64,000 nucleotides of DNA from Longimicrobiales bacterium (GTDB taxonomy: Bacteria; Gemmatimonadota; Gemmatimonadetes; Longimicrobiales; Gaopeijiaceae): NCBI GenBank assembly GCA_965238005.1, contig OZ250165.1, forward strand, positions 1,728,001 to 1,792,000. The letters run 5' to 3'. Positions 13,566 through 59,451 of the stretch are shown here, in pieces (positions within the stretch are counted from its first letter, which is position 1; each line of letters opens with the position of its first letter). The notes under the pieces were generated by a model, which did not search any database, was not told the origin of the DNA, and was given only the letters and a program-made list of their open reading frames with translations. Both the position numbers and the translations under genes were made by a program.

Positions 13566-16232
13566 CTATCCCTCCCTCAGAGCCTCCATCGGCCGGATCC
13601 TCAAGCCTCTGAGAGTCGGCGCAAGGCAAGCGACCATGCCGACCAAGAGCATGAAACCGGCAAAGGTCGCGAGCATCACGGTCCAGTTCGCCCCACGGGC
13701 CGAGGCATCTCCGCCGGTCTCTCTGATCAGCCAGACGCCTAGGCCCACGCCGGCGACGATGCCTGCCACGAGTTGAAGGAACGCCCGCCTCGCAATCGCG
13801 GTCACGATGCTGCCGGGCCGAGCTCCCAAAGCCGTGCGGATTCCGATCTCTCGGGTCCGCTGAGACACGGTGAGGGACATGAGCGCGTAGAGTCCGGCGC
13901 CCGAGAGCACGATGGCGATCGCGGAGAGGAAGACGAGGAGGATGGTGCCGTATTGGGTTACCTGCCGAGCGCCGTTGGGGGCGTTGACCAACGCGGCGGG
14001 ATACTGGATCATCGCCTCGGGGTCGACCTCACCCGTGATCTCCCGGAGCCGGGGCGTGAACGACAGCGGGTCTTCTCCCACGTGGACGGCCAGCCATATA
14101 GGATGGATCTCGCCGGGCGCCGCCGGATGGTACAGGCCCTCGTCGCGCTCCGGGTTGAGCTCGTTCATTCCGAGGTGACCCACGACGCCGATGATCTCGT
14201 ACCACGGCCCGGGCTCTTCACCCTCGGGAGGCACGTACCTCACGCGCCGTCCGATGGGATTTCGGCCTCCCAGGACATGCTCCACGAACGCCGTGTTCAC
14301 AATGACCGCCGTCCGGTCCTCGTCGATGGTGCCGATCAGGTCGGCCGTGGTAAAGCCCCGTCCGTCCAGGATCTTCTGTCCGAGACCCTCGAAGAAGCCT
14401 ACGTCGACGCGGGCTCGCATGACGAGGTGACCCCTGAAGTCCTCACCCCCAACCTCGCCTTCGAGCTCGACGCGCCGTCCCCCGTGCTGCATCCCGGGTA
14501 AGTTGGTCCCCATGGCCACTCCGCGCACGCCCGGCTCGGCGTTGAGGCGCAGAGCCAGCGCCTCGTGGGTCGCGATCACCTGCGTACGGAAGTCGGCGAC
14601 CGAGATGTCGTTCTCGACGGCGCTGTGATCGGTCCACGGGATCCGGAGCAGCGCCATCATGTACTCCTCCGGCTGGATCTCCATTTGAGCGGAAGTGCTC
14701 GACAAGAGGCTCCGGGACATGGTGCCACCCATGGTGAGGAAGCCGATGGCGAGCGCGACCTCTGACACGATCAGGAGCGTCGCCCCCTTCCCGAAGCGGA
14801 TGCCCGATCCTCCCGTGGCCCGTTGGAGGTTCTGTTGCACTCGGCGTCCCGTCGCCTTGAGGGCCGGGAAGACCCCGGCGATCACGGCGCAGAAGACCGC
14901 TAGGGACATCGCGATCGCGACGGTCTTGGGTGTCACCCCGAAATCCATCCAGAAGGGGGCCTCGAGAAACACCCGACTAGTGAACTCACGGGCGAACCGA
15001 TCGCCCAGAACGAGCCCGAGGCCGGCCGACACGACGGCGAGCAGCAGCGACTCGACGAACAGCTGAGAGACGATCCGGCCGCGACTCGCGCCCAACGCCG
15101 TGCGTACGGTGATCTCCGTGGACCGGGTCGCCGTCCGCGCCAGGATGAGGGTCCCCACGTTGCCACAGACGATGGCGAGAAGGGCCAGGATGACCAGCTG
15201 AATCAGGTACATCTCCGACATGTCGCTGGGGTCCAGCCCCACAGCCATTGCGGTGTAGCCCATGATCTGGGGGCGGAGCCGCTGATGCGTGTCCGGGAAC
15301 TCGTTCGCCATGCGAAGGCCGATTGTCGACAGCTCGGCCTGGGCCTGTTCCACCGAGACGCCGTCGGCCAGCCGCCCGAACATCAGAATGTCGGGCCCCA
15401 TGCCCCGCTCGTAGTCGGTGGGCTGGTCGCGAAGCGGCAGCCACAGGAGGTCGCTGAGCGGAAACTTGAAGCCCTCCGGCATGATCCCCACGACCTCGTG
15501 CGGCACCGGGCCTATGCGGATCGTGCTCCCCACCGCGTCCGGGTCTCCGGCGAGCCGCGACTGCCAGACGTCGTACCCGATCACGACCACGTCCGGTGCC
15601 CCGGGAATCTCGTCCGCGTCGAGCAATACGCGCCCCATGAGCGGGCGCACGCGGAGGATCTCGAACGCCGAAGCCGTGATCTCGGAGCCGCGGATCGGCG
15701 CCGCACGTCCGTCCTCCGAGATCACGTTGTACGGGTCGGAGCGGGCGGCGCCGATTGCCTCGAAGGTCGTCAGCTCCTCTCTCCAGATGAAGAAGTCGTG
15801 GAGAGCTCGGACCTCCGTGCGCCGCTCCGCCACGTTCCGGTTTCGGAGCCCGACGATGCGATCCCCCTCGTCGAAAGGAAGCGCGACCTGCAGCGCGTCG
15901 AAGACGTGGAAGGGAATCAGGCTGGCGGGAATCCCGATCGAGAGCGCGAAGACCGTCACCAGCGTGAGGCCGGGCTGCTTGAGGAGCATGCGGAGGCCGA
16001 GCTTCACATCGAGCCACGACGTCCCCACGCTTGGAAGGCGAATGCTCGTTCGCCACAGGTTGAGGGCGGATGCGAACACGTTCATGGCGTATCTCAGTCG
16101 GGCCCTGCCGATCGGGAGGCCGCGCTCGAGCTCATGCTCGAACGTAGCGTCCAACTCGGTCAGGATGAACGGGGCGTGCCGGCCCCGGATGAGGAGTGCG
16201 GCGATTCTGCGGAGCAGGCGAGGCGCGGACAC
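13566..16232 (-). CDS. ABC transporter permease (ADOP/MacB-FtsX duplicated type)
   Basis: 888 aa; two RxxEIxxRxALGA motifs; adjacent to PadR. Confidence 0.93.
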   Translation of the reverse strand: MSAPRLLRRIAALLIRGRHAPFILTELDATFEHELERGLPIGRARLRYAMNVFASALNLWRTSIRLPSVGTSWLDVKLGLRMLLKQPGLTLVTVFALSIGIPASLIPFHVFDALQVALPFDEGDRIVGLRNRNVAERRTEVRALHDFFIWREELTTFEAIGAARSDPYNVISEDGRAAPIRGSEITASAFEILRVRPLMGRVLLDADEIPGAPDVVVIGYDVWQSRLAGDPDAVGSTIRIGPVPHEVVGIMPEGFKFPLSDLLWLPLRDQPTDYERGMGPDILMFGRLADGVSVEQAQAELSTIGLRMANEFPDTHQRLRPQIMGYTAMAVGLDPSDMSEMYLIQLVILALLAIVCGNVGTLILARTATRSTEITVRTALGASRGRIVSQLFVESLLLAVVSAGLGLVLGDRFAREFTSRVFLEAPFWMDFGVTPKTVAIAMSLAVFCAVIAGVFPALKATGRRVQQNLQRATGGSGIRFGKGATLLIVSEVALAIGFLTMGGTMSRSLLSSTSAQMEIQPEEYMMALLRIPWTDHSAVENDISVADFRTQVIATHEALALRLNAEPGVRGVAMGTNLPGMQHGGRRVELEGEVGGEDFRGHLVMRARVDVGFFEGLGQKILDGRGFTTADLIGTIDEDRTAVIVNTAFVEHVLGGRNPIGRRVRYVPPEGEEPGPWYEIIGVVGHLGMNELNPERDEGLYHPAAPGEIHPIWLAVHVGEDPLSFTPRLREITGEVDPEAMIQYPAALVNAPNGARQVTQYGTILLVFLSAIAIVLSGAGLYALMSLTVSQRTREIGIRTALGARPGSIVTAIARRAFLQLVAGIVAGVGLGVWLIRETGGDASARGANWTVMLATFAGFMLLVGMVACLAPTLRGLRIRPMEALREG

Positions 16233-16235
16233 GGC

Positions 16236-16568
16236 TTACTGCTCCGCCAACTCTGTGAGCTTCGGGATCAGGCCACCGGCCATCGCCTGGATCGTCGAGT
16301 ACGTCGCCTGCAACGCCCGCGCGCCGGCGGACTCGAGCGTGTAGTACTTGCGGGGGCGGCCGACTCGGCCCTCGGTCGATTCCTCGACCGTGGCTGAGAC
16401 GAACCCTCGCTCCTCGAGGCGGCCGAGCGCGGTGTAGATCGCTCCGGAGGAGACGACCTTACCGGTCCGCTCTTCGATCGTCTCGCGGATGGTCACGCCG
16501 TACGCGCGATCTCCGAGCTCGAGGACGGAGAAGAGGATGAGCTGTTCGAATTCGCCAAGGTAGGACAT
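16236..16568 (-). CDS. PadR-family transcriptional regulator
   Basis: MSYLGEFEQLIL, GAIYTALGRLEERG, GRPRKYY. Confidence 0.93.
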   Translation of the reverse strand: MSYLGEFEQLILFSVLELGDRAYGVTIRETIEERTGKVVSSGAIYTALGRLEERGFVSATVEESTEGRVGRPRKYYTLESAGARALQATYSTIQAMAGGLIPKLTELAEQ

Positions 16569-17088
16569 CGTGTCGTCTCGGTTCGGTAAGCCCTCAGGCG
16601 TCGTATACAGCATTATGCTACAGTGTGGTATAACTGTGCAAGGCGTGCGACTGGCCGATGGTCCTACCATCGAGGTCTACATGTTTTTCTGCATGTTGGC
16701 CGGGAATCAGTCTCGGATCCGGTTTGTGAACTTTTTCCGCGCTTGCGCATCTCGCCTCGCGACCCAAACTGTGCTCAGAAACAAAGTTTAGGAAACGGTA
16801 TGGGCAGTCGAGAGTACTTGGGTAGGGGCTAGTCGCTTCCGAGGTGACAGATCCGTCGAGCGGGCGACGTGCCACGCACAACTACCGCGTCCTGCCCGCG
16901 GGTGACGATGCCCTGGCGCGATCTTGGGTCTTGCTTGAGCGCCTTTGGGCTGGGCTCGCGAGGGAGCCGGCATGAAACCGCCCGCCGTTGCACGCGCGCT
17001 GGTCCGGCTCATCTCGAACCCTGAGGACCGTGCCGCGCTGATCCAGTTGACCACGGGCCCCGTAGGGGGTTGCCTTGTGGCTTCTCCC

Positions 17089-17116
17089 TTGACAGGGGGC
17101 TTCTGGCGATTAGCGT
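17089..17116 (+). promoter_or_regulatory. Putative sigma70 promoter for the Cys leader region
   Basis: TTGACA, 16-nt spacer, TAGCGT. Confidence 0.55.
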
Positions 17117-17129
17117 TGTTCTTTGGAGG

Positions 17130-17240
17130 ATGGGTCACAAAACAGATGTGCGTAAAAGGACGCTGGTCGTGATACTCAACAGTTGTTGTTGCCGATGTTC
17201 TTGTCCGAGCCCGGTGGGGTGTCGGGGAGACGTCGTATAG
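17130..17240 (+). CDS. Cys-rich leader peptide 1 (alternative start GTG 17169)
   Basis: MGHKTDVRKRTLVVILNSCCCRCSCPSPVGCRGDVV*; AAGGA lies upstream of GTG 17169. Confidence 0.75.
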   Translation: MGHKTDVRKRTLVVILNSCCCRCSCPSPVGCRGDVV

Positions 17241-17268
17241 GCATACACGCGACTGGATTCCCTGAAGC

Positions 17269-17296
17269 GCCACCGGAGACATTCGGTGGCTTTTTT
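17269..17296 (+). terminator. Attenuator terminator 1
   Basis: GCCACCG/CGGTGGC stem plus T6; the 5' arm is complementary to CCGGTGG (17211-17217) in leader 1. Confidence 0.85.
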
Positions 17297-17316
17297 GTGA
17301 GGATTATTTCCCAGAT

Positions 17317-17352
17317 CAAAAAGGCCATCGGGTTTCGCCGCTGGCCTTTTTG
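17317..17352. terminator. Bidirectional terminator-like hairpin
   Basis: CAAAAAGGCCA...TGGCCTTTTTG. Confidence 0.7.
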
Positions 17353-17447
17353 TTCGAACCGGGTAGGACAGGCAGCGGAAGAACTGGAAAACTTAGGACG
17401 AGGTATTCGAAGGCGTGCGGTTCCATGAAGATCTGGAGGTTTTGGAG

Positions 17448-17528
17448 ATGACTCCACGGACGGCCATGTGTTGTTGTTGTTGTTGCACGGTAACGCCTAG
17501 AGAGGGGCGCGTTCCGACGAGTCGTTGA
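17448..17528 (+). CDS. Poly-cysteine leader peptide 2
   Basis: GGAGGT SD, 7-nt spacer, MTPRTAMCCCCCCTVTPREGRVPTSR*. Confidence 0.9.
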   Translation: MTPRTAMCCCCCCTVTPREGRVPTSR

Positions 17529-17552
17529 GAAGAAACCAAGACTCAAGCGAAC

Positions 17553-17585
17553 GCCGCGGCCCCTCGAGGGTCGCGGCTTTTTTTT
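17553..17585 (+). terminator. Attenuator terminator 2
   Basis: GCCGCGGCCC/GGGTCGCGGC stem plus T8; antiterminator GAGGGGC-GCGTTC (17502-17514) pairs with GAACGC and GCCCCTC. Confidence 0.9.
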
Positions 17586-17637
17586 GGGTCTCAACTCTGG
17601 AAGAAAGCATGTTGAAATTGAAATCGGAAGGCAGCAG

Positions 17638-18336
17638 ATGACTGCGGCGACAGCGGGTATCGAAGACGTGAGATGGATCAACGAACGGCTCGAGGGAGCA
17701 CATCCTTCGGACGCCATTCGCTGGGCCGTCGAGAACGTAACGCCCGGGCGGCTGATCGTGGCTTCTTCGTTCGGGTCCACGGGGATGGTGAATCTTCACC
17801 TGCTCGCGGAGATCGCGCCTCAGGTGCCCGTTGCATTCGTGGACACGCTGTACCACTTCCCTGAGACCCTGGAGCATGCCGAGCGGGTGAAGGCACACTA
17901 TGGCCTCGATGTGCGCGTCTACCGGCCCGCCGCGTCACGTGCGGCGTTCGAGGCGAGGTACGGGGAGCGGTTGTGGGAACGTGACTTGGAACTCTTTCAT
18001 CGACTCACGCGGGTCGAGCCCATGAAGCGGGCCCTCCGTGGCGTGGAGGGATGGATCACCGGGCGGCGCCGGGACCAGGCAGCCAGCCGTGCCGCTCTGG
18101 CCCACGTGGAGGTTGGGGATCGCATCAAGATCAACCCGCTGGCCTCTTGGCCGGCCGAAGAGGTTTGGTCCTTCATCCGCGCGAACGGGGTGCCGTACAA
18201 CCCGCTCCACGACCTCGGCTACCAGAGCCTCGGCGACCAACCTCTGACAACGCCCGTTTCCGAGGAAGAGCACGAGCGGGCCGGTCGGTGGAGGGGGAGC
18301 CAACGTTTGGAATGCGGCATACACGCCCTGACGTAA
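17638..18336 (+). CDS. cysH: Phosphoadenylyl-sulfate (PAPS/APS) reductase
   Basis: SSFG, DTLYHFPETL, WITGRRRDQ, ERAGRW, C-terminal ECGIH; lacks the CC and CxxC Fe-S ligands. Confidence 0.93.
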   Translation: MTAATAGIEDVRWINERLEGAHPSDAIRWAVENVTPGRLIVASSFGSTGMVNLHLLAEIAPQVPVAFVDTLYHFPETLEHAERVKAHYGLDVRVYRPAASRAAFEARYGERLWERDLELFHRLTRVEPMKRALRGVEGWITGRRRDQAASRAALAHVEVGDRIKINPLASWPAEEVWSFIRANGVPYNPLHDLGYQSLGDQPLTTPVSEEEHERAGRWRGSQRLECGIHALT

Positions 18337-18721
18337 AGCTTCATGCGGCACACGCCCACCAAATGACAGGCGCATGCTTGTCGTTACGCAAGAGACAGCC
18401 AGCTCGGTAGGTTAGGGTGGGGAACACGGCCACGCCCTGTAGAGAAGGGCACGCCAGTGGTTGCTTGCTCCGGCTACCGGCACCGACCTACTGCGAGCCC
18501 CGCTGGCTAGAGCTCGCGACTTCAGATAACGCCGCGCTCCCACTCGGGCCCTCGGGTACGCTTCGCTGGTTGGGCGAGTAGGTAGCAGAGTAGGCTGCGG
18601 GCCTGGCGCTTTGGGGCACCGTGTCTCGCTCTTCACTCGACGCGCCGCCGGGCAAGTGTTCGCTCCTCGCGTGCGCGGCGTTATAGATTGACCACCCCCT
18701 TGTGAATGCTGGCAGGTGGCC

Positions 18722-19813
18722 ATGACGACAATGACGGACATCGAGTGGGAGGAGTGCCTGCTGGAGCCGAGAGCGAGCCCCGAGCTCGAGCAGCGCTTCA
18801 TACGCGAGGTCGGCCGTTCTGGTCGGACGCTCCGATTCCTCAAAGGCTGCAGTTGGCTCGGTGATGCCGTGATTCGGCTGTCGGTCGAGCTCCAAACCCG
18901 CGTGTTTCTGGAGCCGGACCTCGCGGACCAAGTGGGGCTCGTGGTGAGTCAGGACAACTCCTGCCGATACTGCTTCGGCGCCCAGCGCGCGTTTCTCCGC
19001 ATTCTCGGCATGAAGGAGGCCCGCATCGCTCGCCTCGAGCAGGATCTCCTCACCGGTGACTTCACGCCTCAGGAGCGCGCGGCGATCGAGTTTGCAAGAC
19101 GTGTTTCACGGTCCTCTCCCCTCGCGTCGCAAGTCGATCTCGAGGCGTTGCGAAGGGGAGGCTTCTCGGACGCCGAGGTCTCCGAGCTCGCAGGTCTGAT
19201 CGGGCTGTACCTCTTCTTCAACAAGCTCTCCACGATGCTCGCGCTGGCGCCGGGACCCATAGAGCAGCTTCCCGATTCTTGGTGGGTGTGCATCACGCGA
19301 CCGTTGATGGCCATCAAACTTCGTCGGATTCGGAAGACGGCACGGCGGGTCGACCTCAGGGCGGAGGAGAAGACCGGGCCGTTCTCCGCAGTCGTCGTCG
19401 GTCTGGACGGCCTGCCGATGGCTCGCCAGCTGAGAATCGTGCTCGACCGGATGTGGTCGTCCAACGCGATCACCCCCCGGGCCGTTCCTCTCGTCTTCGC
19501 GGTCATCGCACGCGCCCTTGGCTGCGCGGCTTCGGAGCGGGAGGCCACACGGCTACTCGTGGAGCGAGGGCTCACCGTGGAGGAGGTGCAAGAGATCCTG
19601 ACCCACCTCGCATCCCCGGCTCTCGACGAGATCGAAGGCGAGATCGTCCCTCTCGCGCGCGAGACGGTCTGGTACCAGCCCGCACAGATTCAAAGGAGGT
19701 GTCGCGAGTTCCAAGCCCTCGTGACCCGCGAGCAGATGCTCGAGTTCCTCGGCGCGGCATCGCTCGCGAATGCGGTCTGCAGGCTCGGCGTCGTGAGCGA
19801 CGCCTTCGAGTGA
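18722..19813 (+). CDS. AhpD/carboxymuconolactone decarboxylase-like protein, duplicated domain
   Basis: VVSQDNSCRYC (CxxC) in domain 1; domain 2 has ARALGCAAS. Confidence 0.75.
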   Translation: MTTMTDIEWEECLLEPRASPELEQRFIREVGRSGRTLRFLKGCSWLGDAVIRLSVELQTRVFLEPDLADQVGLVVSQDNSCRYCFGAQRAFLRILGMKEARIARLEQDLLTGDFTPQERAAIEFARRVSRSSPLASQVDLEALRRGGFSDAEVSELAGLIGLYLFFNKLSTMLALAPGPIEQLPDSWWVCITRPLMAIKLRRIRKTARRVDLRAEEKTGPFSAVVVGLDGLPMARQLRIVLDRMWSSNAITPRAVPLVFAVIARALGCAASEREATRLLVERGLTVEEVQEILTHLASPALDEIEGEIVPLARETVWYQPAQIQRRCREFQALVTREQMLEFLGAASLANAVCRLGVVSDAFE

Positions 19814-21446: not shown

Positions 21447-22759
21447 GCTCGCTTCCTTTCTTCCAAGAGATCGCTGATCCGCATGACTCAAAGCTTCCCG
21501 GCTCGGGAGTGGACCGCAAGAAGTTTGGCCGACCGCGTACCGGTGGTCACCTGATCGCGAAGCCAATCTCCCTCAGCCACTCCTCCGGCAGGGACCCCGT
21601 ACAGCGGCCCACGAGCGACTGGATTCGCTGGATCTCCGCCTCCGAGGGGCTCACCGCGCTACGGTTCGCTTTCTCAAGCCACTCGCCTACGGCCCGTCGC
21701 GCTGCGATGGCGACCGGCTCCTGTCCCTCAAGCACGCGTCCCACCCCTACACCGTCCCCACCTACCCTCGCTAGGCAGCGGTCGCCATGTGGTCTGGGAC
21801 TCGGAGACACCTGGGTTCGGCCTTCGAGTATATCCGAGTGATCGCAAGGCCTTCGTCCTCTCGTACCGATTCCAGGGACGGAAGCGGCTGCTCACGCTCG
21901 GGACCTACGGTGTTCTCACCGTGCAGCAGGGTAGGGAGGCGGCCCGGAAGGCTCTCGGCCAGGTAGCTGCGGGCCATGACCCTCTCGAGGGTCGGAAGGA
22001 CTCTCGGCGGCATCGGGTGACACTCAAGGAGCACGCCGAGGAGTGGTCTGAGGCGGAGGGTAGGGTGCGGCGGAGGTCCTGGTTTAGCGGGATGACGAGA
22101 GACGCCTGGACAAGCACATCCTACCAGCTTTGGGCTCGAAGGCGTTGGAATCCATCACCGAACGGGACTGCGAGCGACTCCACGCGAAGGTGACCGAGCG
22201 AGGTCCGGTAAAGGCGAACAGGACGCTCGAGCTCCTCCGCCTGGTCCTGAATGTGGCGATGAACGATGGGCTGATTGATAGGAACCCCGCCGCCCGATCT
22301 TGGCGTTCGAAGCGTGGAAATCGAGAGCGGAGCCGGACCCGCTACCTCAAGAAGGACGAGTTCCAGGCGTTCACCAAGGCGGTCGAAGAAGAACAGAACC
22401 CGTATGTGCGAGCCGTGGTCTGGCTCCTGCTGCTCACGGGCGCACGGTCACAGTCGGAGCTTCTACGACTACGGTGGGATGGCATCGATTGGGACGGTGG
22501 GCTGATCGCCCTCCACCGCTCGAAGACCGACGACGTACTCACTCTGCCGTTATCGGATGCAGCTCGCGAGATCCTCGCCTCGTTACCTCGCGAGGCATCG
22601 AATCCCTACGTGTTCCCAGGTAGGGCACCCGGGACACATCGGATGACGATCAGGAAGCCATTCGAGCGGATCCGTGAGAAGGCGGGGCTGACAGGCGATC
22701 GGTCTGTAACCCTGCATGACCTGAGGAGAACCGCCGGTTCGCTCATGGCCCAGGCTAGG

Positions 22760-24362
22760 GAGTCTGCGCCGCAGAAGCACAGCTGACTGAGCCGAATGGT
22801 CATCGAGCCGTCCGCGGCGAGGCGGATCCGGGTGATTGGGAGGTTGAGGACTTGTGTCTGCGACGGATCGGGAGAGCGGAATGGATGCGTTGGGGGGGGG
22901 CAAGAGAGCTACGAGAGCCCTCGCGCCGGCAGATGCGGGTGAACCCTCGTGCAGTCATGCCGCCTGAAGGGTGTGCAGCCGCTTCACATTGAGTGCCAGG
23001 CACACGAGGGTCCACTCGGCCCGGACCTTCTCGAGGCCCCGGAAGCTGAATCGTCGAAAGCCCATCACTTCCTTGATCCAGCCGATGGGCGCCTCGGCCT
23101 GCGACTTTCGCCGTGCGTAGCGTCTGCGGCCATCTTCGCTCGCCAGCTTCTCCGCCATGCGGACTTTCGCCGGATATTCCTCCTTGTCAACCGTGGGGGC
23201 GGCCTTGCCCTCCCGGGCCAGCGCCACATACCCGTCGATGTCTCGCTCTTCCAGTTCCTCGAGATCCCGCTCGTTGCAATAGCCCGTGTCCGCCAGCACC
23301 TGCGCCGGCGTCTCGCCGTACGCTTGCGCCACCGCGTCGACCATGGGCACCAGCTGGCCCTGGTCGCTCGCGTTGTCCGTCACCTCGGCCCCGACCACCA
23401 GCTGGTTCTCCCCCTCCACGACCGTCTGTGCGTTGTAGCACTGCTGGAACCCCTCCGAACTCGTCTTCATGATCCGGCTCTCAGGGTCCGTGAAGTTGCT
23501 CTGCGCCGCCTCGTCCGGCTCTCCGTACTCCCGCTTGTAGGGCCTGCCGCCCTTCGGGTTGCGCGTCTGCCCCGGCTTGCGGCCCCGTGCGTCGTCCGCC
23601 GCTCTCTGCTCGGCTTCCAGGCGCGCCTTCGCCTCCCGGATCGCCGCCAGCCGGTCCTCGCGCCGCTTGAGCTCCTCCGGCACCTCGTCTCCGCATGCTT
23701 CCTCGCCGTAGCGCTCGTCTTCCGCTTCGTCCACCGCCTCGGCCCTCTCCAACAGCCCCCGGATCTCCGCCTCCAGCCGAGGCTCCCCGGTCACCATCCG
23801 GCCGTAGCTCATCGCCTTGCGCTTGTTCGCGTTCGCCCGAACCTTCGTCCCGTCCACCGACACCCTGCCAAGCCCCGCCAGCCCCAAGGCCCGCGCGAGC
23901 ATCACCACCTCCACAAACACCGCCCGGAAATCCCCGAGATGGCGCTTGCGGAACTCGCACAGCGTCCGGTGCTTCGGGAAGTTCTCCGCCGCCAGCATCC
24001 GAAACGCGACATCCTCCTCCAGCTTCCTCGCCATCTTCCGCGACGAGAAGGTGCCCGTCGCATACGCGTAGATCAGCACCTTGACCATCATCCGAGGGTC
24101 GTACGGCGAGTTGCGCCGCCCGTCCCCCCGGTACCGCCCGTAGAACGCGCTCAGCTCCACCGCGTCCACCAGGTCGCTCACATGGTGCGCCAAATGACCC
24201 TCCGACACCCACTCCCGAAGATCCGGAGGCAGCAACAACATCTGCTCCGGATCGTACGGTCGAAATGTCGTTCCCATTCACCCCCCTCGGTGATCCGCAA
24301 GCCTTCCCAATGCCTTCGCTACCACCAAAGATAGCCGCCGCAGGGTTCTGCGGCGCAGACTC
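22760..24362 (-). mobile_element. IS1182-family element, copy 1
   Basis: 16-bp IR GAGTCTGCGCCGCAGA; CTAGG duplicated on both flanks. Confidence 0.95.
22955..24277 (-). CDS. IS1182-family transposase
   Basis: PYDPRMMVKVLIYAY, SSRKMA, VDGTKV, LADTGY, EAPIGWIK. Confidence 0.93.
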   Translation of the reverse strand: MGTTFRPYDPEQMLLLPPDLREWVSEGHLAHHVSDLVDAVELSAFYGRYRGDGRRNSPYDPRMMVKVLIYAYATGTFSSRKMARKLEEDVAFRMLAAENFPKHRTLCEFRKRHLGDFRAVFVEVVMLARALGLAGLGRVSVDGTKVRANANKRKAMSYGRMVTGEPRLEAEIRGLLERAEAVDEAEDERYGEEACGDEVPEELKRREDRLAAIREAKARLEAEQRAADDARGRKPGQTRNPKGGRPYKREYGEPDEAAQSNFTDPESRIMKTSSEGFQQCYNAQTVVEGENQLVVGAEVTDNASDQGQLVPMVDAVAQAYGETPAQVLADTGYCNERDLEELEERDIDGYVALAREGKAAPTVDKEEYPAKVRMAEKLASEDGRRRYARRKSQAEAPIGWIKEVMGFRRFSFRGLEKVRAEWTLVCLALNVKRLHTLQAA

Positions 24363-25116
24363 CTAGGGTGCCCTTGTACCACATCAGGGCCGTCCTGGGG
24401 CACAAGAGCGAGGCTGTGACGCAGGTCTATGCGCGGCTGGGAGAGGACGACACCAAGGGAGCGGTGGACGTTCTCGGCTCGTCGGTTTCACGACTTCAGG
24501 AGGTGCCCGATTCTGTAGACACGGATGCCCTGGACTCGGAGGAGGCAGCGCTCCGGGCACGCCTCGCAGAGATTGAAAACACGCGTCAGGGGGCTACCGA
24601 TGGGTAAGTCATCCAGGCCACCAAGCGAGCCACCGCCAGACCTGAGCGTAAGCGGCCTGGAGCCTGAGTGGATTGGTCCCCTGATCGGGGACGAGGAAGC
24701 CTACGATCGCTAGCTCTTCGTAGAGTTGGTGGATGAGATGGTGCCGAAACTGAAGGAGAGTTTGGTTGAGGATGTCCTGTCGAAAGCCGAGGAGCTAATC
24801 GGTGACGTCCCGATCGGTGACGTCTCAAGTCCGGCCGAGCGAGGGCCGATGGAGCGTTTCCAAATGCTGCCTGGTCTCGTCGCGAGTGGGGACGACTTCG
24901 AAGATCTAGAGGTCCTGAAGGTGCAGCCGGACAAGAGTGTGGACGTCCCGCCGAAGGCAAGGGAGGTCCTGAAGACTCTAAGGTCCTGAAGCTCCCAGAA
25001 GAAGACCCGAAGGATCTGAATCTCCCGGACGACCTGAACGACTTGAACGAAGAGGAGCTCCTGGAAGTCAGGCACTCCTAGGAGCCCCGGACGACCTGAC
25101 CCGAGAGGCTGCCGAA

Positions 25117-51191: not shown

Positions 51192-51218
51192 TCCTATGGA
51201 TGTTAGAAACTACCCTAG

Positions 51219-52820
51219 GAGTCTGCGCCGCAGAAGCACAGCTGACTGAGCCGAATGGTCATCGAGCCGTCCGCGGCGAGGCGGATCCGGGTGATTGGGA
51301 GGTTGAGGACTTGTGTCTGCGACGGATCGGGAGAGCGGAATGGATGCGTTGGGGGGGGCAAGAGAGCTACGAGAGCCCTCGCGCCGGCAGATGCGGGTGA
51401 ACCCTCGTGCAGTCATGCCGCCTGAAGGGTGTGCAGCCGCTTCACATTGAGTGCCAGGCACACGAGGGTCCACTCGGCCCGGACCTTCTCGAGGCCCCGG
51501 AAGCTGAATCGTCGAAAGCCCATCACTTCCTTGATCCAGCCGATGGGCGCCTCGGCCTGCGACTTTCGCCGTGCGTAGCGTCTGCGGCCATCTTCGCTCG
51601 CCAGCTTCTCCGCCATGCGGACTTTCGCCGGATATTCCTCCTTGTCAACCGTGGGGGCGGCCTTGCCCTCCCGGGCCAGCGCCACATACCCGTCGATGTC
51701 TCGCTCTTCCAGTTCCTCGAGATCCCGCTCGTTGCAATAGCCCGTGTCCGCCAGCACCTGCGCCGGCGTCTCGCCGTACGCTTGCGCCACCGCGTCGACC
51801 ATGGGCACCAGCTGGCCCTGGTCGCTCGCGTTGTCCGTCACCTCGGCCCCGACCACCAGCTGGTTCTCCCCCTCCACGACCGTCTGTGCGTTGTAGCACT
51901 GCTGGAACCCCTCCGAACTCGTCTTCATGATCCGGCTCTCAGGGTCCGTGAAGTTGCTCTGCGCCGCCTCGTCCGGCTCTCCGTACTCCCGCTTGTAGGG
52001 CCTGCCGCCCTTCGGGTTGCGCGTCTGCCCCGGCTTGCGGCCCCGTGCGTCGTCCGCCGCTCTCTGCTCGGCTTCCAGGCGCGCCTTCGCCTCCCGGATC
52101 GCCGCCAGCCGGTCCTCGCGCCGCTTGAGCTCCTCCGGCACCTCGTCTCCGCATGCTTCCTCGCCGTAGCGCTCGTCTTCCGCTTCGTCCACCGCCTCGG
52201 CCCTCTCCAACAGCCCCCGGATCTCCGCCTCCAGCCGAGGCTCCCCGGTCACCATCCGGCCGTAGCTCATCGCCTTGCGCTTGTTCGCGTTCGCCCGAAC
52301 CTTCGTCCCGTCCACCGACACCCTGCCAAGCCCCGCCAGCCCCAAGGCCCGCGCGAGCATCACCACCTCCACAAACACCGCCCGGAAATCCCCGAGATGG
52401 CGCTTGCGGAACTCGCACAGCGTCCGGTGCTTCGGGAAGTTCTCCGCCGCCAGCATCCGAAACGCGACATCCTCCTCCAGCTTCCTCGCCATCTTCCGCG
52501 ACGAGAAGGTGCCCGTCGCATACGCGTAGATCAGCACCTTGACCATCATCCGAGGGTCGTACGGCGAGTTGCGCCGCCCGTCCCCCCGGTACCGCCCGTA
52601 GAACGCGCTCAGCTCCACCGCGTCCACCAGGTCGCTCACATGGTGCGCCAAATGACCCTCCGACACCCACTCCCGAAGATCCGGAGGCAGCAACAACATC
52701 TGCTCCGGATCGTACGGTCGAAATGTCGTTCCCATTCACCCCCCTCGGTGATCCGCAAGCCTTCCCAATGCCTTCGCTACCACCAAAGATAGCCGCCGCA
52801 GGGTTCTGCGGCGCAGACTC
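51219..52820 (-). mobile_element. IS1182-family element, copy 2
   Basis: Same IRs as copy 1; CTAG on both flanks. Confidence 0.95.
51413..52735 (-). CDS. IS1182-family transposase
   Basis: Protein identical to 22955-24277. Confidence 0.93.
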   Translation of the reverse strand: MGTTFRPYDPEQMLLLPPDLREWVSEGHLAHHVSDLVDAVELSAFYGRYRGDGRRNSPYDPRMMVKVLIYAYATGTFSSRKMARKLEEDVAFRMLAAENFPKHRTLCEFRKRHLGDFRAVFVEVVMLARALGLAGLGRVSVDGTKVRANANKRKAMSYGRMVTGEPRLEAEIRGLLERAEAVDEAEDERYGEEACGDEVPEELKRREDRLAAIREAKARLEAEQRAADDARGRKPGQTRNPKGGRPYKREYGEPDEAAQSNFTDPESRIMKTSSEGFQQCYNAQTVVEGENQLVVGAEVTDNASDQGQLVPMVDAVAQAYGETPAQVLADTGYCNERDLEELEERDIDGYVALAREGKAAPTVDKEEYPAKVRMAEKLASEDGRRRYARRKSQAEAPIGWIKEVMGFRRFSFRGLEKVRAEWTLVCLALNVKRLHTLQAA

Positions 52821-53002
52821 CTAGGCGAGGCTGGATGAGTGGTTGGATTTAATGGTCCGTGATCATTCCCAAGGGGTGGTCATCGTCTAAGTGGGTTGCA
52901 GCCTCACACTCCTTGGACGCATGTTGCCCGGCGGTCCAGCATACTGGAGTTGACCCGCTTTGGTGGACACCTCAGTAGTGAGGGAGACAGGAGGAGTCCA
53001 CG

Positions 53003-56989: not shown

Positions 56990-57147
56990 GTCAGACATCT
57001 CTGATCGGGAAAAAAGGTGATTGGTCCGACAAGGGAGCAAACCCCGTGCCGAGCCGTGAGATCCGCGACAGGTCTTCGTCCTCGCGCGCGTCAGGCCGTC
57101 CCGTGGACGGGCCCATCACTCTGAACAGTACCATTTTCCGGTCCTAG

Positions 57148-58749
57148 GAGTCTGCGCCGCAGAACCCTGCGGCGGCTATCTTTGGTGGTAGCGAAGGCAT
57201 TGGGAAGGCTTGCGGATCACCGAGGGGGGTGAATGGGAACGACATTTCGACCGTACGATCCGGAGCAGATGTTGTTGCTGCCTCCGGATCTTCGGGAGTG
57301 GGTGTCGGAGGGTCATTTGGCGCACCATGTGAGCGACCTGGTGGACGCGGTGGAGCTGAGCGCGTTCTACGGGCGGTACCGGGGGGACGGGCGGCGCAAC
57401 TCGCCGTACGACCCTCGGATGATGGTCAAGGTGCTGATCTACGCGTATGCGACGGGCACCTTCTCGTCGCGGAAGATGGCGAGGAAGCTGGAGGAGGATG
57501 TCGCGTTTCGGATGCTGGCGGCGGAGAACTTCCCGAAGCACCGGACGCTGTGCGAGTTCCGCAAGCGCCATCTCGGGGATTTCCGGGCGGTGTTTGTGGA
57601 GGTGGTGATGCTCGCGCGGGCCTTGGGGCTGGCGGGGCTTGGCAGGGTGTCGGTGGACGGGACGAAGGTTCGGGCGAACGCGAACAAGCGCAAGGCGATG
57701 AGCTACGGCCGGATGGTGACCGGGGAGCCTCGGCTGGAGGCGGAGATCCGGGGGCTGTTGGAGAGGGCCGAGGCGGTGGACGAAGCGGAAGACGAGCGCT
57801 ACGGCGAGGAAGCATGCGGAGACGAGGTGCCGGAGGAGCTCAAGCGGCGCGAGGACCGGCTGGCGGCGATCCGGGAGGCGAAGGCGCGCCTGGAAGCCGA
57901 GCAGAGAGCGGCGGACGACGCACGGGGCCGCAAGCCGGGGCAGACGCGCAACCCGAAGGGCGGCAGGCCCTACAAGCGGGAGTACGGAGAGCCGGACGAG
58001 GCGGCGCAGAGCAACTTCACGGACCCTGAGAGCCGGATCATGAAGACGAGTTCGGAGGGGTTCCAGCAGTGCTACAACGCACAGACGGTCGTGGAGGGGG
58101 AGAACCAGCTGGTGGTCGGGGCCGAGGTGACGGACAACGCGAGCGACCAGGGCCAGCTGGTGCCCATGGTCGACGCGGTGGCGCAAGCGTACGGCGAGAC
58201 GCCGGCGCAGGTGCTGGCGGACACGGGCTATTGCAACGAGCGGGATCTCGAGGAACTGGAAGAGCGAGACATCGACGGGTATGTGGCGCTGGCCCGGGAG
58301 GGCAAGGCCGCCCCCACGGTTGACAAGGAGGAATATCCGGCGAAAGTCCGCATGGCGGAGAAGCTGGCGAGCGAAGATGGCCGCAGACGCTACGCACGGC
58401 GAAAGTCGCAGGCCGAGGCGCCCATCGGCTGGATCAAGGAAGTGATGGGCTTTCGACGATTCAGCTTCCGGGGCCTCGAGAAGGTCCGGGCCGAGTGGAC
58501 CCTCGTGTGCCTGGCACTCAATGTGAAGCGGCTGCACACCCTTCAGGCGGCATGACTGCACGAGGGTTCACCCGCATCTGCCGGCGCGAGGGCTCTCGTA
58601 GCTCTCTTGCCCCCCCCAACGCATCCATTCCGCTCTCCCGATCCGTCGCAGACACAAGTCCTCAACCTCCCAATCACCCGGATCCGCCTCGCCGCGGACG
58701 GCTCGATGACCATTCGGCTCAGTCAGCTGTGCTTCTGCGGCGCAGACTC
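57148..58749 (+). mobile_element. IS1182-family element, copy 3
   Basis: Same IRs; CTAG on both flanks; inverted relative to copy 2. Confidence 0.95.
57233..58555 (+). CDS. IS1182-family transposase
   Basis: Protein identical to the other copies. Confidence 0.93.
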   Translation: MGTTFRPYDPEQMLLLPPDLREWVSEGHLAHHVSDLVDAVELSAFYGRYRGDGRRNSPYDPRMMVKVLIYAYATGTFSSRKMARKLEEDVAFRMLAAENFPKHRTLCEFRKRHLGDFRAVFVEVVMLARALGLAGLGRVSVDGTKVRANANKRKAMSYGRMVTGEPRLEAEIRGLLERAEAVDEAEDERYGEEACGDEVPEELKRREDRLAAIREAKARLEAEQRAADDARGRKPGQTRNPKGGRPYKREYGEPDEAAQSNFTDPESRIMKTSSEGFQQCYNAQTVVEGENQLVVGAEVTDNASDQGQLVPMVDAVAQAYGETPAQVLADTGYCNERDLEELEERDIDGYVALAREGKAAPTVDKEEYPAKVRMAEKLASEDGRRRYARRKSQAEAPIGWIKEVMGFRRFSFRGLEKVRAEWTLVCLALNVKRLHTLQAA

Positions 58750-59451
58750 CTAGGACTCCTTTACGACCTCGATCGAGCCTGTGATGGCAGCCTCGATCCC
58801 CGACTGGTCGGCAGGATCATTGGGATCGAGCGTACCGCCGCCGGACCCGACGAACCACTGGCTCAGGTCGAAGTCCAGAGACACGAGAGTGACGAGTATA
58901 TCATCCTCCGTGACGCTGAGTGGCGTGGCGAACGCCAACTCCATATCGATGTCGAGCGGAGCCGTGAACTCGAAAGCTTCTGGCGTGCCATTCCGAACGA
59001 CCTCGCCGGTGACCAAGACGCTGGCATCTGCCAACGAAGGCCAGAGGTCGATCAGGGCCTGCTCTTCGGGGTGGCCGATCTCAAGCTTGTCGATCGAGAC
59101 TTCGAGTTCCTTGTAGATGCCGGACGGTACGTCCGTATCGAACGCCAACGTCGGCTCCCCTGCCAGATCCAAGGGGATGACCACGGACCTCTCGAAGATC
59201 CAGTCCACGGTCTGATCGAGCCCTGCGGTCTCCAGTTTGAGGCCACCCAGGACGAGGACGGCTTCACCGATCTCGATCGACGTAATGCCAGGTGCCAGCA
59301 TCGGACCGCTTGCGGTGGCGGGTGCCGATGTTTGTGAGACCCGGACCTGGACTTGGAGCTGATGCTGGCCGGTTGGGCCAACAGAATCTGAGCATCCGCC
59401 GATGAGGGCGGACCCAAGCACGACGTAGGCTGACGGTCGGCGCAGTCTCAT
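58750..59451 (-). CDS. Hypothetical lipoprotein
   Basis: MRLRR...LIGGC lipobox; its TAG stop lies in the IS target CTAG. Confidence 0.75.
   Translation of the reverse strand: MRLRRPSAYVVLGSALIGGCSDSVGPTGQHQLQVQVRVSQTSAPATASGPMLAPGITSIEIGEAVLVLGGLKLETAGLDQTVDWIFERSVVIPLDLAGEPTLAFDTDVPSGIYKELEVSIDKLEIGHPEEQALIDLWPSLADASVLVTGEVVRNGTPEAFEFTAPLDIDMELAFATPLSVTEDDILVTLVSLDFDLSQWFVGSGGGTLDPNDPADQSGIEAAITGSIEVVKES

What the first reader, a model, noticed from the sequence alone, without database searches (positions are those of the whole stretch)
17435..17585. Six-cysteine leader peptide forming a classical transcription attenuator for cysH
Seen: SD GGAGGT, MTPRTAMCCCCCCTVTPREGRVPTSR*, antiterminator 17502-17514 pairing with 17549-17554 and 17559-17565 and so excluding the 10-bp terminator plus T8, with cysH 52 nt later. 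Known: sulfate assimilation is usually controlled by CysB/CymR-type proteins, T-boxes or SAM riboswitches; poly-Cys leaders are known mainly from Actinobacteria, acting by other mechanisms. Inference: intrinsic-terminator Cys attenuation in this lineage may be undescribed.
Basis: partly seen in the sequence, partly recalled or inferred. Interest (0 to 1): 0.85.

Follow-up and report, generated by a model that had tools for sequence, protein, structure and literature searches.

The report
Tandem cysteine-sensing attenuators before cysH
Two tiny cysteine-codon-rich reading frames and three transcription stop signals sit in series in front of a sulfur-assimilation gene of an uncultured Gemmatimonadota bacterium, and most likely let ribosomes switch the gene on only when cysteine runs short; the principle is textbook, but this stacked layout was not found in print.

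Summary
It is conserved, not a microsatellite. But it is only the second half of the switch. Upstream lie a conserved promoter and an unrelated Cys leader (17169-17240) with its own antiterminator and two terminators, whose arms can pair in domino fashion so that one stall blocks both. Of 28 distinct related leaders, 28 keep module 1 and 16 keep module 2; repeated deletions removed it elsewhere. Across Gemmatimonadota, 35 of 45 cysH operons carry a Cys ORF plus terminator (control 5 of 1498 windows); five carry a SAM-II riboswitch there. Limits: no experiment, little covariation, an antiterminator beyond chance in only 14 of 35 phylum cases. Cys attenuation with an intrinsic terminator was already predicted for Rhodobacterales cysS (PMC8632094). 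Unchecked scan notes report similar single and tandem Cys leaders in other genomes. Verdict: new variant of classical leader-peptide attenuation; interest 0.6.

The parts
17089..17116 (+). Promoter-like site: TTGACA (17089-94), 16 nt, TAGCGT (17111-16)
   Evidence: Both hexamers nearly invariant in 9 aligned leaders and found by pattern in 31 of 34 related loci, the other 3 being too short or distant; not listed by the consensus scanner (3 of 6 in the -10 box). Function inferred.
17156..17240 (+). Leader 1: SD AAGGA (17156-60), GTG 17169, 23 codons with 6 Cys codons (3 consecutive at 17184-17192), TAG 17238-40
   Evidence: ATG at the matching place in relatives; Cys-to-stop identity 0.96 against 0.63 at four-fold sites of cysH
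17211..17217 (+). Segment A: 5' strand of antiterminator 1, pairs with segment B (17270-17276)
   Evidence: 196 of 196 cells paired in 28 sequences (invariant, so no covariation); forms in 28 of 28 with a ribosome on the Cys codons; 2 of 1000 shuffles as stable
17269..17296 (+). Terminator 1 (B:C, 9 bp, -16.5 kcal/mol) + T6
   Evidence: 245 of 249 cells paired
17318..17351 (+). Terminator-like hairpin 2 (D:E) + T5; its 5' arm D also pairs with the 3' arm C and T run of terminator 1 (17283-17295 with 17319-17331)
   Evidence: C:D 324 of 338 cells; D:E 193 of 251 in the window's register; C:D 0 of 1000 shuffles
17389..17428 (+). Conserved block of unknown role (holds an SD-like GAGGT and an in-frame GTG at 17415)
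   Evidence: identity 0.80 against 0.66 in the neighbouring spacer; only a weak consensus fold
17435..17528 (+).
   Evidence: start in frame in 16 of 16, stop kept in 15 of 16, 4-9 Cys codons
17502..17565 (+). Antiterminator 2: 17502-14 with 17549-54 and 17559-65, enclosing an inner hairpin around the stop codon
   Evidence: 250 of 252 cells paired in 14 distinct sequences, no two-sided change
17553..17585 (+). Terminator 3 (10 bp, -22.2 kcal/mol) + T8
   Evidence: 164 of 170 cells paired
17609..17641 (+). Conserved 10-codon micro-ORF whose TGA overlaps the cysH ATG; possible translational coupling
   Evidence: same frame and stop in 25 of 27 loci, start ATG in 23, GTG in 1, ATT in 1; removed by deletion in 2. 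Role inferred.
17638..18336 (+). cysH, PAPS-reductase type (a single Cys, no 4Fe-4S motifs)
   Evidence: translation; the genome has a bifunctional ATP sulfurylase/APS kinase
17063..18354 (+). Whole promoter-leader-cysH segment, duplicated 25.8 kb upstream in the genome (C1:1719255-1720546, 2 mismatches)
   Evidence: the other copy is followed by a 5' stub of the sulfite reductase gene, so it is probably the original; in run X1 a flank contig ends at 17092 and identical inner contigs have depth 32 against 20 (X1 may be the source sample)

Best explanation
One promoter at 17089-17116 transcribes a 500-nt leader with two ribosome-operated gates in series, both reading charged tRNA-Cys. Gate 1: a ribosome stalled on the first Cys codons of leader 1 leaves segment A free; A pairs with B, so terminator 1 cannot form, and the released arm C then captures D before E is made, so hairpin 2 cannot form either. 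With cysteine plentiful the ribosome covers A, terminator 1 forms, and hairpin 2 is a backup for polymerases that leak through. cysH is transcribed only when both gates are passed, which should lower the leak and steepen the response. Shown by sequence and computation: ORFs, helices, mutual exclusion, footprint geometry, conservation, link to cys genes. Inferred: translation, stalling, termination, series wiring, the role of hairpin 2. My odds: Cys-sensing attenuation 0.9; both gates on one transcript 0.8; the domino being functional 0.6.
For: Geometry: antiterminator 2 has probability 0.99 with the ribosome on any Cys codon and 0.00 from codon 17-19 on, for three footprint sizes. Shuffle tests: 0 of 1000 (module 2), 2 of 1000 (module 1), 0 of 1000 (C:D); the gain falls to shuffle level when the ribosome is past the Cys codons. 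Stepwise folding: A:B in 28 of 28, C:D in 28 of 28 before E emerges, D:E in 28 of 28 when C is held in terminator 1. Selection: identity 0.99 (antiterminator strand), 0.93 (leader 2 after the Cys run), 0.96 (leader 1), 0.85 (D), 0.68 (E) against 0.63 at four-fold sites (12 sequences); all 8 single-base changes at the two variable positions of D keep C:D as G-U pairs. Frame: Cys frame has an in-frame start in 16 of 16, whole-codon length changes, TGT and TGC mixed; the Leu frame loses its stop in 3 of 16. Phylum: 35 of 45 cysH operons against 5 of 1498 random windows. Same genome: a Cys leader before cysG-sulfite reductase and a His leader before hisG. A SAM-II riboswitch occupies the same position in 5 genomes, once directly followed by a Cys leader. 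Module 2 matches single Cys attenuators before cysH in more distant relatives, not module 1, so two separate families were joined.
Against: No expression data: the runs laid were contigs and cannot show ends or levels. At equilibrium with the full terminator present, terminator 3 wins at every ribosome position (0.82-0.998), so the switch must be kinetic. After E is made, C:D outlasts D:E in only 14 of 28; unconstrained full-length folds are mixed. Close relatives show no two-sided compensatory change; the distant set shows two, not significant (23-63 of 500 shuffles). A first null test (fraction of the arm paired) did not separate real from shuffled (118 of 200 for the window, 71-150 of 200 in all 16). 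Across the phylum the antiterminator beats shuffles in only 14 of 35, and for the cysG leader it does not (182 of 1000). Module 2 is missing from 12 of 28, so it is dispensable. D repeats B in sequence, so C:D complementarity would arise from a hairpin duplication alone. The phylum rule and window positions were set after seeing data, and kin are not independent.
Confidence: 0.75

Rival explanations
1. Both leaders are Cys attenuators, but module 2 has its own promoter in 17352-17435, so the two are alternatives, not gates in series.
For: The block 17389-17428 is conserved (0.80) without a known role. In G478 an insertion element with cargo (about 3 kb) lies between the modules and module 2 is still intact.
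Against: No promoter-like site by scan or by the lineage's own pattern; in L047 the stretch between hairpin 2 and that block is deleted and module 2 stays intact; module 1 with the promoter is present in 28 of 28.
Confidence: 0.1
2. Hairpin 2 is not a working terminator; D is only a lock that soaks up arm C and stabilises readthrough of terminator 1, or is a decaying duplicate of it.
For: E is barely more conserved than neutral sites (0.68 against 0.63); D:E pairs in 193 of 251 cells; the T run is interrupted in several relatives.
Against: D:E still folds at -14.5 to -26.1 kcal/mol and forms in 28 of 28 when C is unavailable; most sequences keep five or more T; L050, at 74% CysH identity, has a near-perfect hairpin of other sequence.
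Confidence: 0.25
3. The Cys-rich peptides act themselves (thiol or metal binding, or nascent-peptide arrest), or control is mainly at translation, as in mycobacterial poly-Cys ORFs.
For: The residues after the Cys run are well conserved; mycobacterial poly-Cys ORFs act on translation, not termination (10.1101/834739, passages).
Against: The conserved codons are the ones that form helices; codons before the Cys run vary (0.75); Cys number varies 4-9; phylum leaders share little but Cys codons and a terminator; none of the helices covers the cysH ribosome-binding site.
Confidence: 0.07
4. The TGT run is a microsatellite and the hairpins are constitutive terminators or chance.
For: 81 of 99 Cys codons in leader 2 are TGT against 979 of 4119 in long ORFs; run length varies; two deletion types end inside the run.
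Against: Only two such runs in the genome; TGC interspersed; start, frame and stop kept; 35 of 45 against 5 of 1498; many phylum leaders have no repeat run (for example alternating Cys and Met or Ala).
Confidence: 0.02

Closest known systems
Classical leader-peptide transcription attenuators (trpL, hisL, leuL, thrL, pheL, ilvL; general properties recalled, and summarised in passages of PMC4007540 and 10.1101/834739)
   Same: SD-led short ORF with cognate codons, antiterminator overlapping an intrinsic terminator, cognate biosynthetic gene downstream.
   Different: Cysteine; two leaders and three terminator hairpins; no protector hairpin that blocks the antiterminator without a ribosome (antiterminator 0.99 with no ribosome), so a start-codon mutation should derepress rather than super-attenuate.
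uORFC-8-2 motif, Rhodobacterales cysS (PMC8632094; section passage read, supplements not read)
   Same: Cys codons in a uORF plus U-tailed terminator; predicted to sense tRNA-Cys charging.
   Different: Two Cys codons, one module, synthetase gene, Alphaproteobacteria; prediction only. No Rfam family reached its gathering score on the window region.
Mycobacterial polycysteine leaderless ORFs (10.1101/834739, passages) and actinobacterial cys leaders (PMC1262725, passages)
   Same: Poly-Cys short ORF ahead of cysteine genes; cysteine response shown by experiment in mycobacteria.
   Different: Those are leaderless and act by hiding the SD, or lack terminator hairpins; here SD-led ORFs with intrinsic terminators.
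Salmonella mgtCBR tandem attenuators (PMC3641672, passages)
   Same: Two short ORFs in one leader, each controlling alternative hairpins.
   Different: Two different signals (ATP, proline) and no intrinsic terminators; here one signal read twice, with three intrinsic-type terminators.
Tandem riboswitches such as B. clausii metE (as described in PMC3641672; tandem T-boxes recalled)
   Same: Independent terminator gates in series on one transcript.
   Different: Sensing is by RNA aptamers there, by translating ribosomes here.

Membership tests
Classical leader-peptide transcription attenuator | Short ORF with start and SD, enriched in codons of the pathway's amino acid | tested here: met
   (both leaders)
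Classical leader-peptide transcription attenuator | Intrinsic terminator between leader and first gene | tested here: met
   (by sequence; termination itself not measured)
Classical leader-peptide transcription attenuator | Antiterminator mutually exclusive with the terminator | tested here: met
   weak covariation
Classical leader-peptide transcription attenuator | Ribosome on regulatory codons frees the antiterminator strand, further on covers it | tested here: met
   (modelled footprints)
Classical leader-peptide transcription attenuator | Downstream gene belongs to the cognate pathway | tested here: met
   operon cysH-sulfite-reductase-like gene in relatives (below curated cut-offs for that gene)
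Classical leader-peptide transcription attenuator | 1:2 pause/protector hairpin as in trpL | tested here: inconclusive
   a G-U-rich hairpin over the Cys run is predicted but does not overlap the antiterminator strand; absent from the consensus fold
Classical leader-peptide transcription attenuator | Amino-acid-dependent termination shown by experiment | not testable with these tools
   only contigs available
uORFC-8-2 (Rhodobacterales cysS) | Upstream of cysS in Rhodobacterales | tested here: not met
   cysH; Gemmatimonadota
uORFC-8-2 (Rhodobacterales cysS) | Sequence/structure match to the motif's model | not tested
   alignment not obtained; Rfam scan negative but I did not check that the motif is in Rfam
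Mycobacterial poly-Cys leaderless attenuator | Leaderless ORF at the transcript's first base | tested here: not met
   starts lie about 45 and 325 nt behind the predicted start site, each with an SD
Mycobacterial poly-Cys leaderless attenuator | Cys tract pairs with the downstream gene's SD; no terminator | tested here: not met
   terminators present; no such pairing in the folds
SAM riboswitch or T-box | Match to the Rfam model | tested here: not met
   (window 16600-18800, three chance-level hits only)

The most novel reading that the evidence does not exclude
A three-terminator, two-ribosome logic gate: two separately evolved cysteine-sensing leaders were joined in series, and the first controls two terminators by a chain of strand exchanges (A:B frees C, C captures D). 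The chain is extensible: where leader 2 was deleted but terminator 3 kept (L072, L088, one event), the freed arm E can pair with terminator 3's 5' arm (-16.6 kcal/mol), putting all three terminators under leader 1. Cys leaders would be the default control of sulfate assimilation in most Gemmatimonadota, interchangeable and stackable with SAM-II riboswitches.
Probability: 0.45. Interest if true: 0.75.

Novelty: new variant of a known kind. Interest (0 to 1): 0.6.

Why it matters
Cysteine lacks an experimentally shown terminator-type leader attenuator: the 2020 mycobacterial study states that none had been described, and the cysS cases are predictions. This locus offers a complete, compact test case, and shows that a little-studied phylum controls sulfate assimilation largely at the RNA level. 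The natural series of intact, truncated and rewired leaders makes an open question testable: what does stacking same-signal attenuators buy (leak, steepness) and why is it lost so often? The parts could also serve as a portable cysteine-starvation sensor.

Tried and rejected
Rfam scan of 16600-18800: nothing at gathering level. Consensus promoter scan missed the conserved promoter. Equilibrium folding with the full terminator cannot show the switch. The first null statistic (fraction of arm paired) was uninformative and was replaced by an energy gain; both are reported. Leu and Val frames of the TGT run rejected: stop lost in 3 of 16 for Leu, scattered stops for Val, no SD-led start. ATG 17130 as start of leader 1 rejected: SD abuts it and relatives do not keep it. 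GTG 17415 as start of leader 2 is possible but its frame is broken in L070. Module 2 as a duplicate of module 1 rejected: model R1 gave no match to module 1 at E up to 1. Sequencing runs: only contigs; RNA-library contigs of relatives cover module 1 and some span terminator 3, but depth cannot rank parts and DNA may be present, so I draw nothing from them. No CysD-type ATP sulfurylase in the genome (96% complete); no Cys leader before sat, cysK or the second cysK/M-like gene. Of 13 CysD-like loci scanned over about 5 kb, 1 had a Cys leader (G025, 10 kb from its cysH) and 12 had none. Of 16 distant cysH loci examined (34-46% identity; 16 of 29 returned) none had one. Literature searches with no relevant or no hits; with only the papers cited. 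Covariation in the distant set was not significant.

Full report
OBSERVATION. CysH has one Cys and no iron-sulfur motifs, and the genome encodes a bifunctional ATP sulfurylase/APS kinase, which fits a PAPS route. The nearest named CysH records (84-90% identity) are Gemmatimonadota, mostly Longimicrobiales. Rfam has no match at gathering level.

280 bases upstream is a second Cys-rich ORF (GTG 17169 to TAG 17240, 6 Cys), behind a conserved TTGACA-N16-TAGCGT site, followed by terminator 1 (17269-96) and a third hairpin with T5 (17318-51). A genome-wide scan gave 6 Cys-ORF-plus-terminator hits: these two leaders twice (the 1292-bp segment is duplicated), one before cysG-sulfite reductase, one unrelated; the same scan found a His leader before hisG.

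FOLDING. With the nascent RNA ending in the terminator loop, antiterminator 2 has probability 0.99 for a ribosome on any Cys codon and 0.00 from codon 17-19 onward (three footprint sizes). It also forms with no ribosome, so there is no trp-like protector. With the whole terminator present the terminator wins everywhere; the switch is therefore kinetic, as is usual for attenuators (recalled). Energy gain against dinucleotide shuffles: module 2 -19.3 against -7.7 (0 of 1000), module 1 -15.1 against -5.7 (2 of 1000), C:D -22.9 against -6.1 (0 of 1000); with the ribosome further on, the gains equal the shuffles. An earlier, cruder statistic did not discriminate (118 of 200). In module 1 the window's own RNA folds into A:B plus C:D when the ribosome sits on Cys 1-4, and into terminator 1 plus hairpin 2 from Cys 5 on.

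CONSERVATION. I took the window copy, 8 of the 23 loci and 25 of the 64 (those closest in CysH); 3 of these 34 lacked the promoter in the DNA held and were dropped, leaving 31 loci and 28 distinct leaders. All 28 keep module 1. 16, the window included, keep the core of module 2; in these the start is in frame in 16, the stop kept in 15, Cys codons number 4-9 and change by whole codons, with TGC, and some Trp, Arg, Ser or Gly codons, interspersed. 12 lack it: one more distant sequence (L050) and 11 close ones that, by my reading of the alignments, show 7 different junctions, 4 of them leaving remnants (start plus Cys codons, or terminator 3). A cysH tree of 26 close rows needs 5 changes of state (bootstrap 5-6; well-supported branches force only 2; L098 left out as partial). 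So the tandem is ancestral in this clade and repeatedly lost. Among 12 tandem-bearing sequences identity is 0.99 in the antiterminator strand, 0.93 in leader 2 after the Cys run, 0.92 in terminator 3, 0.85 in D, 0.68 in E, 0.64-0.69 in spacers and 0.63 at four-fold sites of cysH. Pair counts: A:B 196 of 196, terminator 1 245 of 249, C:D 324 of 338, D:E 193 of 251 (window's register; slips understate it), antiterminator 2 206 of 208, terminator 3 164 of 170, with no two-sided change. Stepwise folding gives A:B in 28 of 28, C:D in 28 of 28 before E is made, D:E in 28 of 28 when C is held; at equilibrium after E is made C:D and D:E split 14 and 14. The domino is thus kinetically plausible everywhere, thermodynamically favoured in half.

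ORIGIN. A sequence model of module 2 finds single Cys attenuators before cysH in 9 more distant loci (E 3e-7 to 2e-3) but not module 1 (60 sources). In them the same three-tier antiterminator is predicted from changed sequence in most cases (5 of 9 at 12 or fewer of 200 shuffles, 2 intermediate, 2 not); the middle helix shows two two-sided changes, not significant. The tandem therefore joins two families rather than doubling one.

PHYLUM. Of 301 genomes, 45 have cysH over the cut-off. In 1.5-kb windows at the operon head, 35 of 45 carry a Cys-rich ORF followed by a hairpin and T-rich tail, against 5 of 1498 random windows of this genome (rule and windows set after looking at the data; kin not independent). 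Of the 10 misses, 2 have ORF and hairpin but few T, 4 have a SAM-II riboswitch there, 1 runs off its contig, 3 belong to another class and have neither. One genome has SAM-II and a Cys leader in series. 8 of 8 further metagenome loci at 58-67% CysH identity have the element, 0 of 16 at 34-46%. However, a specific antiterminator beats shuffles in only 14 of 35 (one row tested the wrong hairpin), so the terminator-switch mechanism is less certain outside the closest groups.

MECHANISM. Best reading: one transcript, two ribosome gates reading Cys-tRNA (a single tRNA-Cys gene; leaders favour the rarer TGT codon), three terminators, the first gate closing or opening two of them by strand exchange. 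Readthrough would be the product of the gates (inference). Rivals: an internal promoter for module 2 (0.10), hairpin 2 as a mere lock or relic (0.25, compatible with the rest), peptide or translational action (0.07), microsatellite (0.02). Contig-level reads support the duplication in one run but say nothing on expression.

KNOWN SYSTEMS. It works like trpL/hisL-type attenuators and meets every sequence criterion I could test, except for an unclear pause hairpin; the experimental criterion is untested. It is not a mycobacterial leaderless poly-Cys element (10.1101/834739, passages) nor an actinobacterial leader without terminator (PMC1262725, passages). Predicted Cys attenuators with or without a described terminator exist for cysS in Rhodobacterales (PMC8632094, section passage) and Deinococcus (PMC4007540, passages). 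Tandem attenuators are described for mgtCBR, with two signals and no intrinsic terminators, as a singular case in 2012 (PMC3641672, passages); exchange between riboswitches and leader peptides is a known theme (PMC2965389, passages). Ten searches found no Cys terminator attenuator for sulfate assimilation, none in Gemmatimonadota, and no leader controlling two terminators; subscription journals and the supplements of the cited papers were not seen. Unchecked notes of this scan describe single Cys attenuators in another Gemmatimonadota genome and in Acidobacteriota and Bacteroidota, tandem ones in Bacteroidota and SAR324, and a double-terminator leader in Chloroflexota; my tandem and domino reading was written down before I saw them, and I did not test theirs.

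VERDICT. Real, conserved, very probably functional; a new variant of a known kind. Interest 0.6; most novel reading 0.45 likely, 0.75 if true.

Noticed in passing
L133:8882-8952, L134:4760-4831, L144:907-980, L145:910-984, L151:5810-5884: SAM-II (RF00521) riboswitches above gathering score at the head of cysH operons in 5 Gemmatimonadota genomes of one family, each followed by a terminator-like hairpin; in L134 followed by a Cys leader with its own terminator, in L133 by a Cys-rich frame. A paper search for SAM-II with Gemmatimonad found nothing.
   Followed up: partly
G000 C1:3870798-3870880 (minus strand; in L181): Third Cys leader (27 codons, 5 Cys) with a strong terminator before cysG and a sulfite-reductase-like gene; a homologue lies before a cysG-like gene in L052.
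   Followed up: partly
G000 C1:3573770-3573950 (L182): His-rich leader (5 His in 8 codons) with terminator before hisG.
   Followed up: no
window 17063-18354 and C1:1719255-1720546: Near-exact 1292-bp duplication of promoter, leaders and cysH; both copies have lost the downstream operon, the other copy keeps a short 5' stub of the sulfite reductase gene behind two short direct repeats.
   Followed up: yes
window 17609-17641: Conserved 10-codon ORF overlapping the cysH start, like a natural bicistronic starter.
   Followed up: partly
L201 (G456), L200 (G478): G456 keeps the whole tandem leader but cysH is deleted, its first codons fused to the sulfite reductase gene; G478 has an insertion element with methylase-like cargo between the modules and no cysH there.
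   Followed up: partly
L013, about 410 nt before cysH (G117): A possible second Cys-containing ORF with a weak hairpin (-12.5) upstream of the main leader: perhaps an independent tandem.
   Followed up: no
window 22755-24368, and about 51210-52830, 57140-58760: Copies of a 1.6-kb insertion sequence (440-aa transposase-like ORF at 22955-24277) with dozens of near-identical copies in the genome.
   Followed up: no
window 13566-16670 (minus strand): PadR-like regulator plus ADOP-like duplicated permease, divergent from the leader; both below curated cut-offs.
   Followed up: no
search: Full matches to module 2 were found only in one genus other than the window's own (4 of 8 genomes, plus 1 partial; 0 of 2 in its own genus), hinting at transfer of the locus or at genus boundaries that cut across it.
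   Followed up: no
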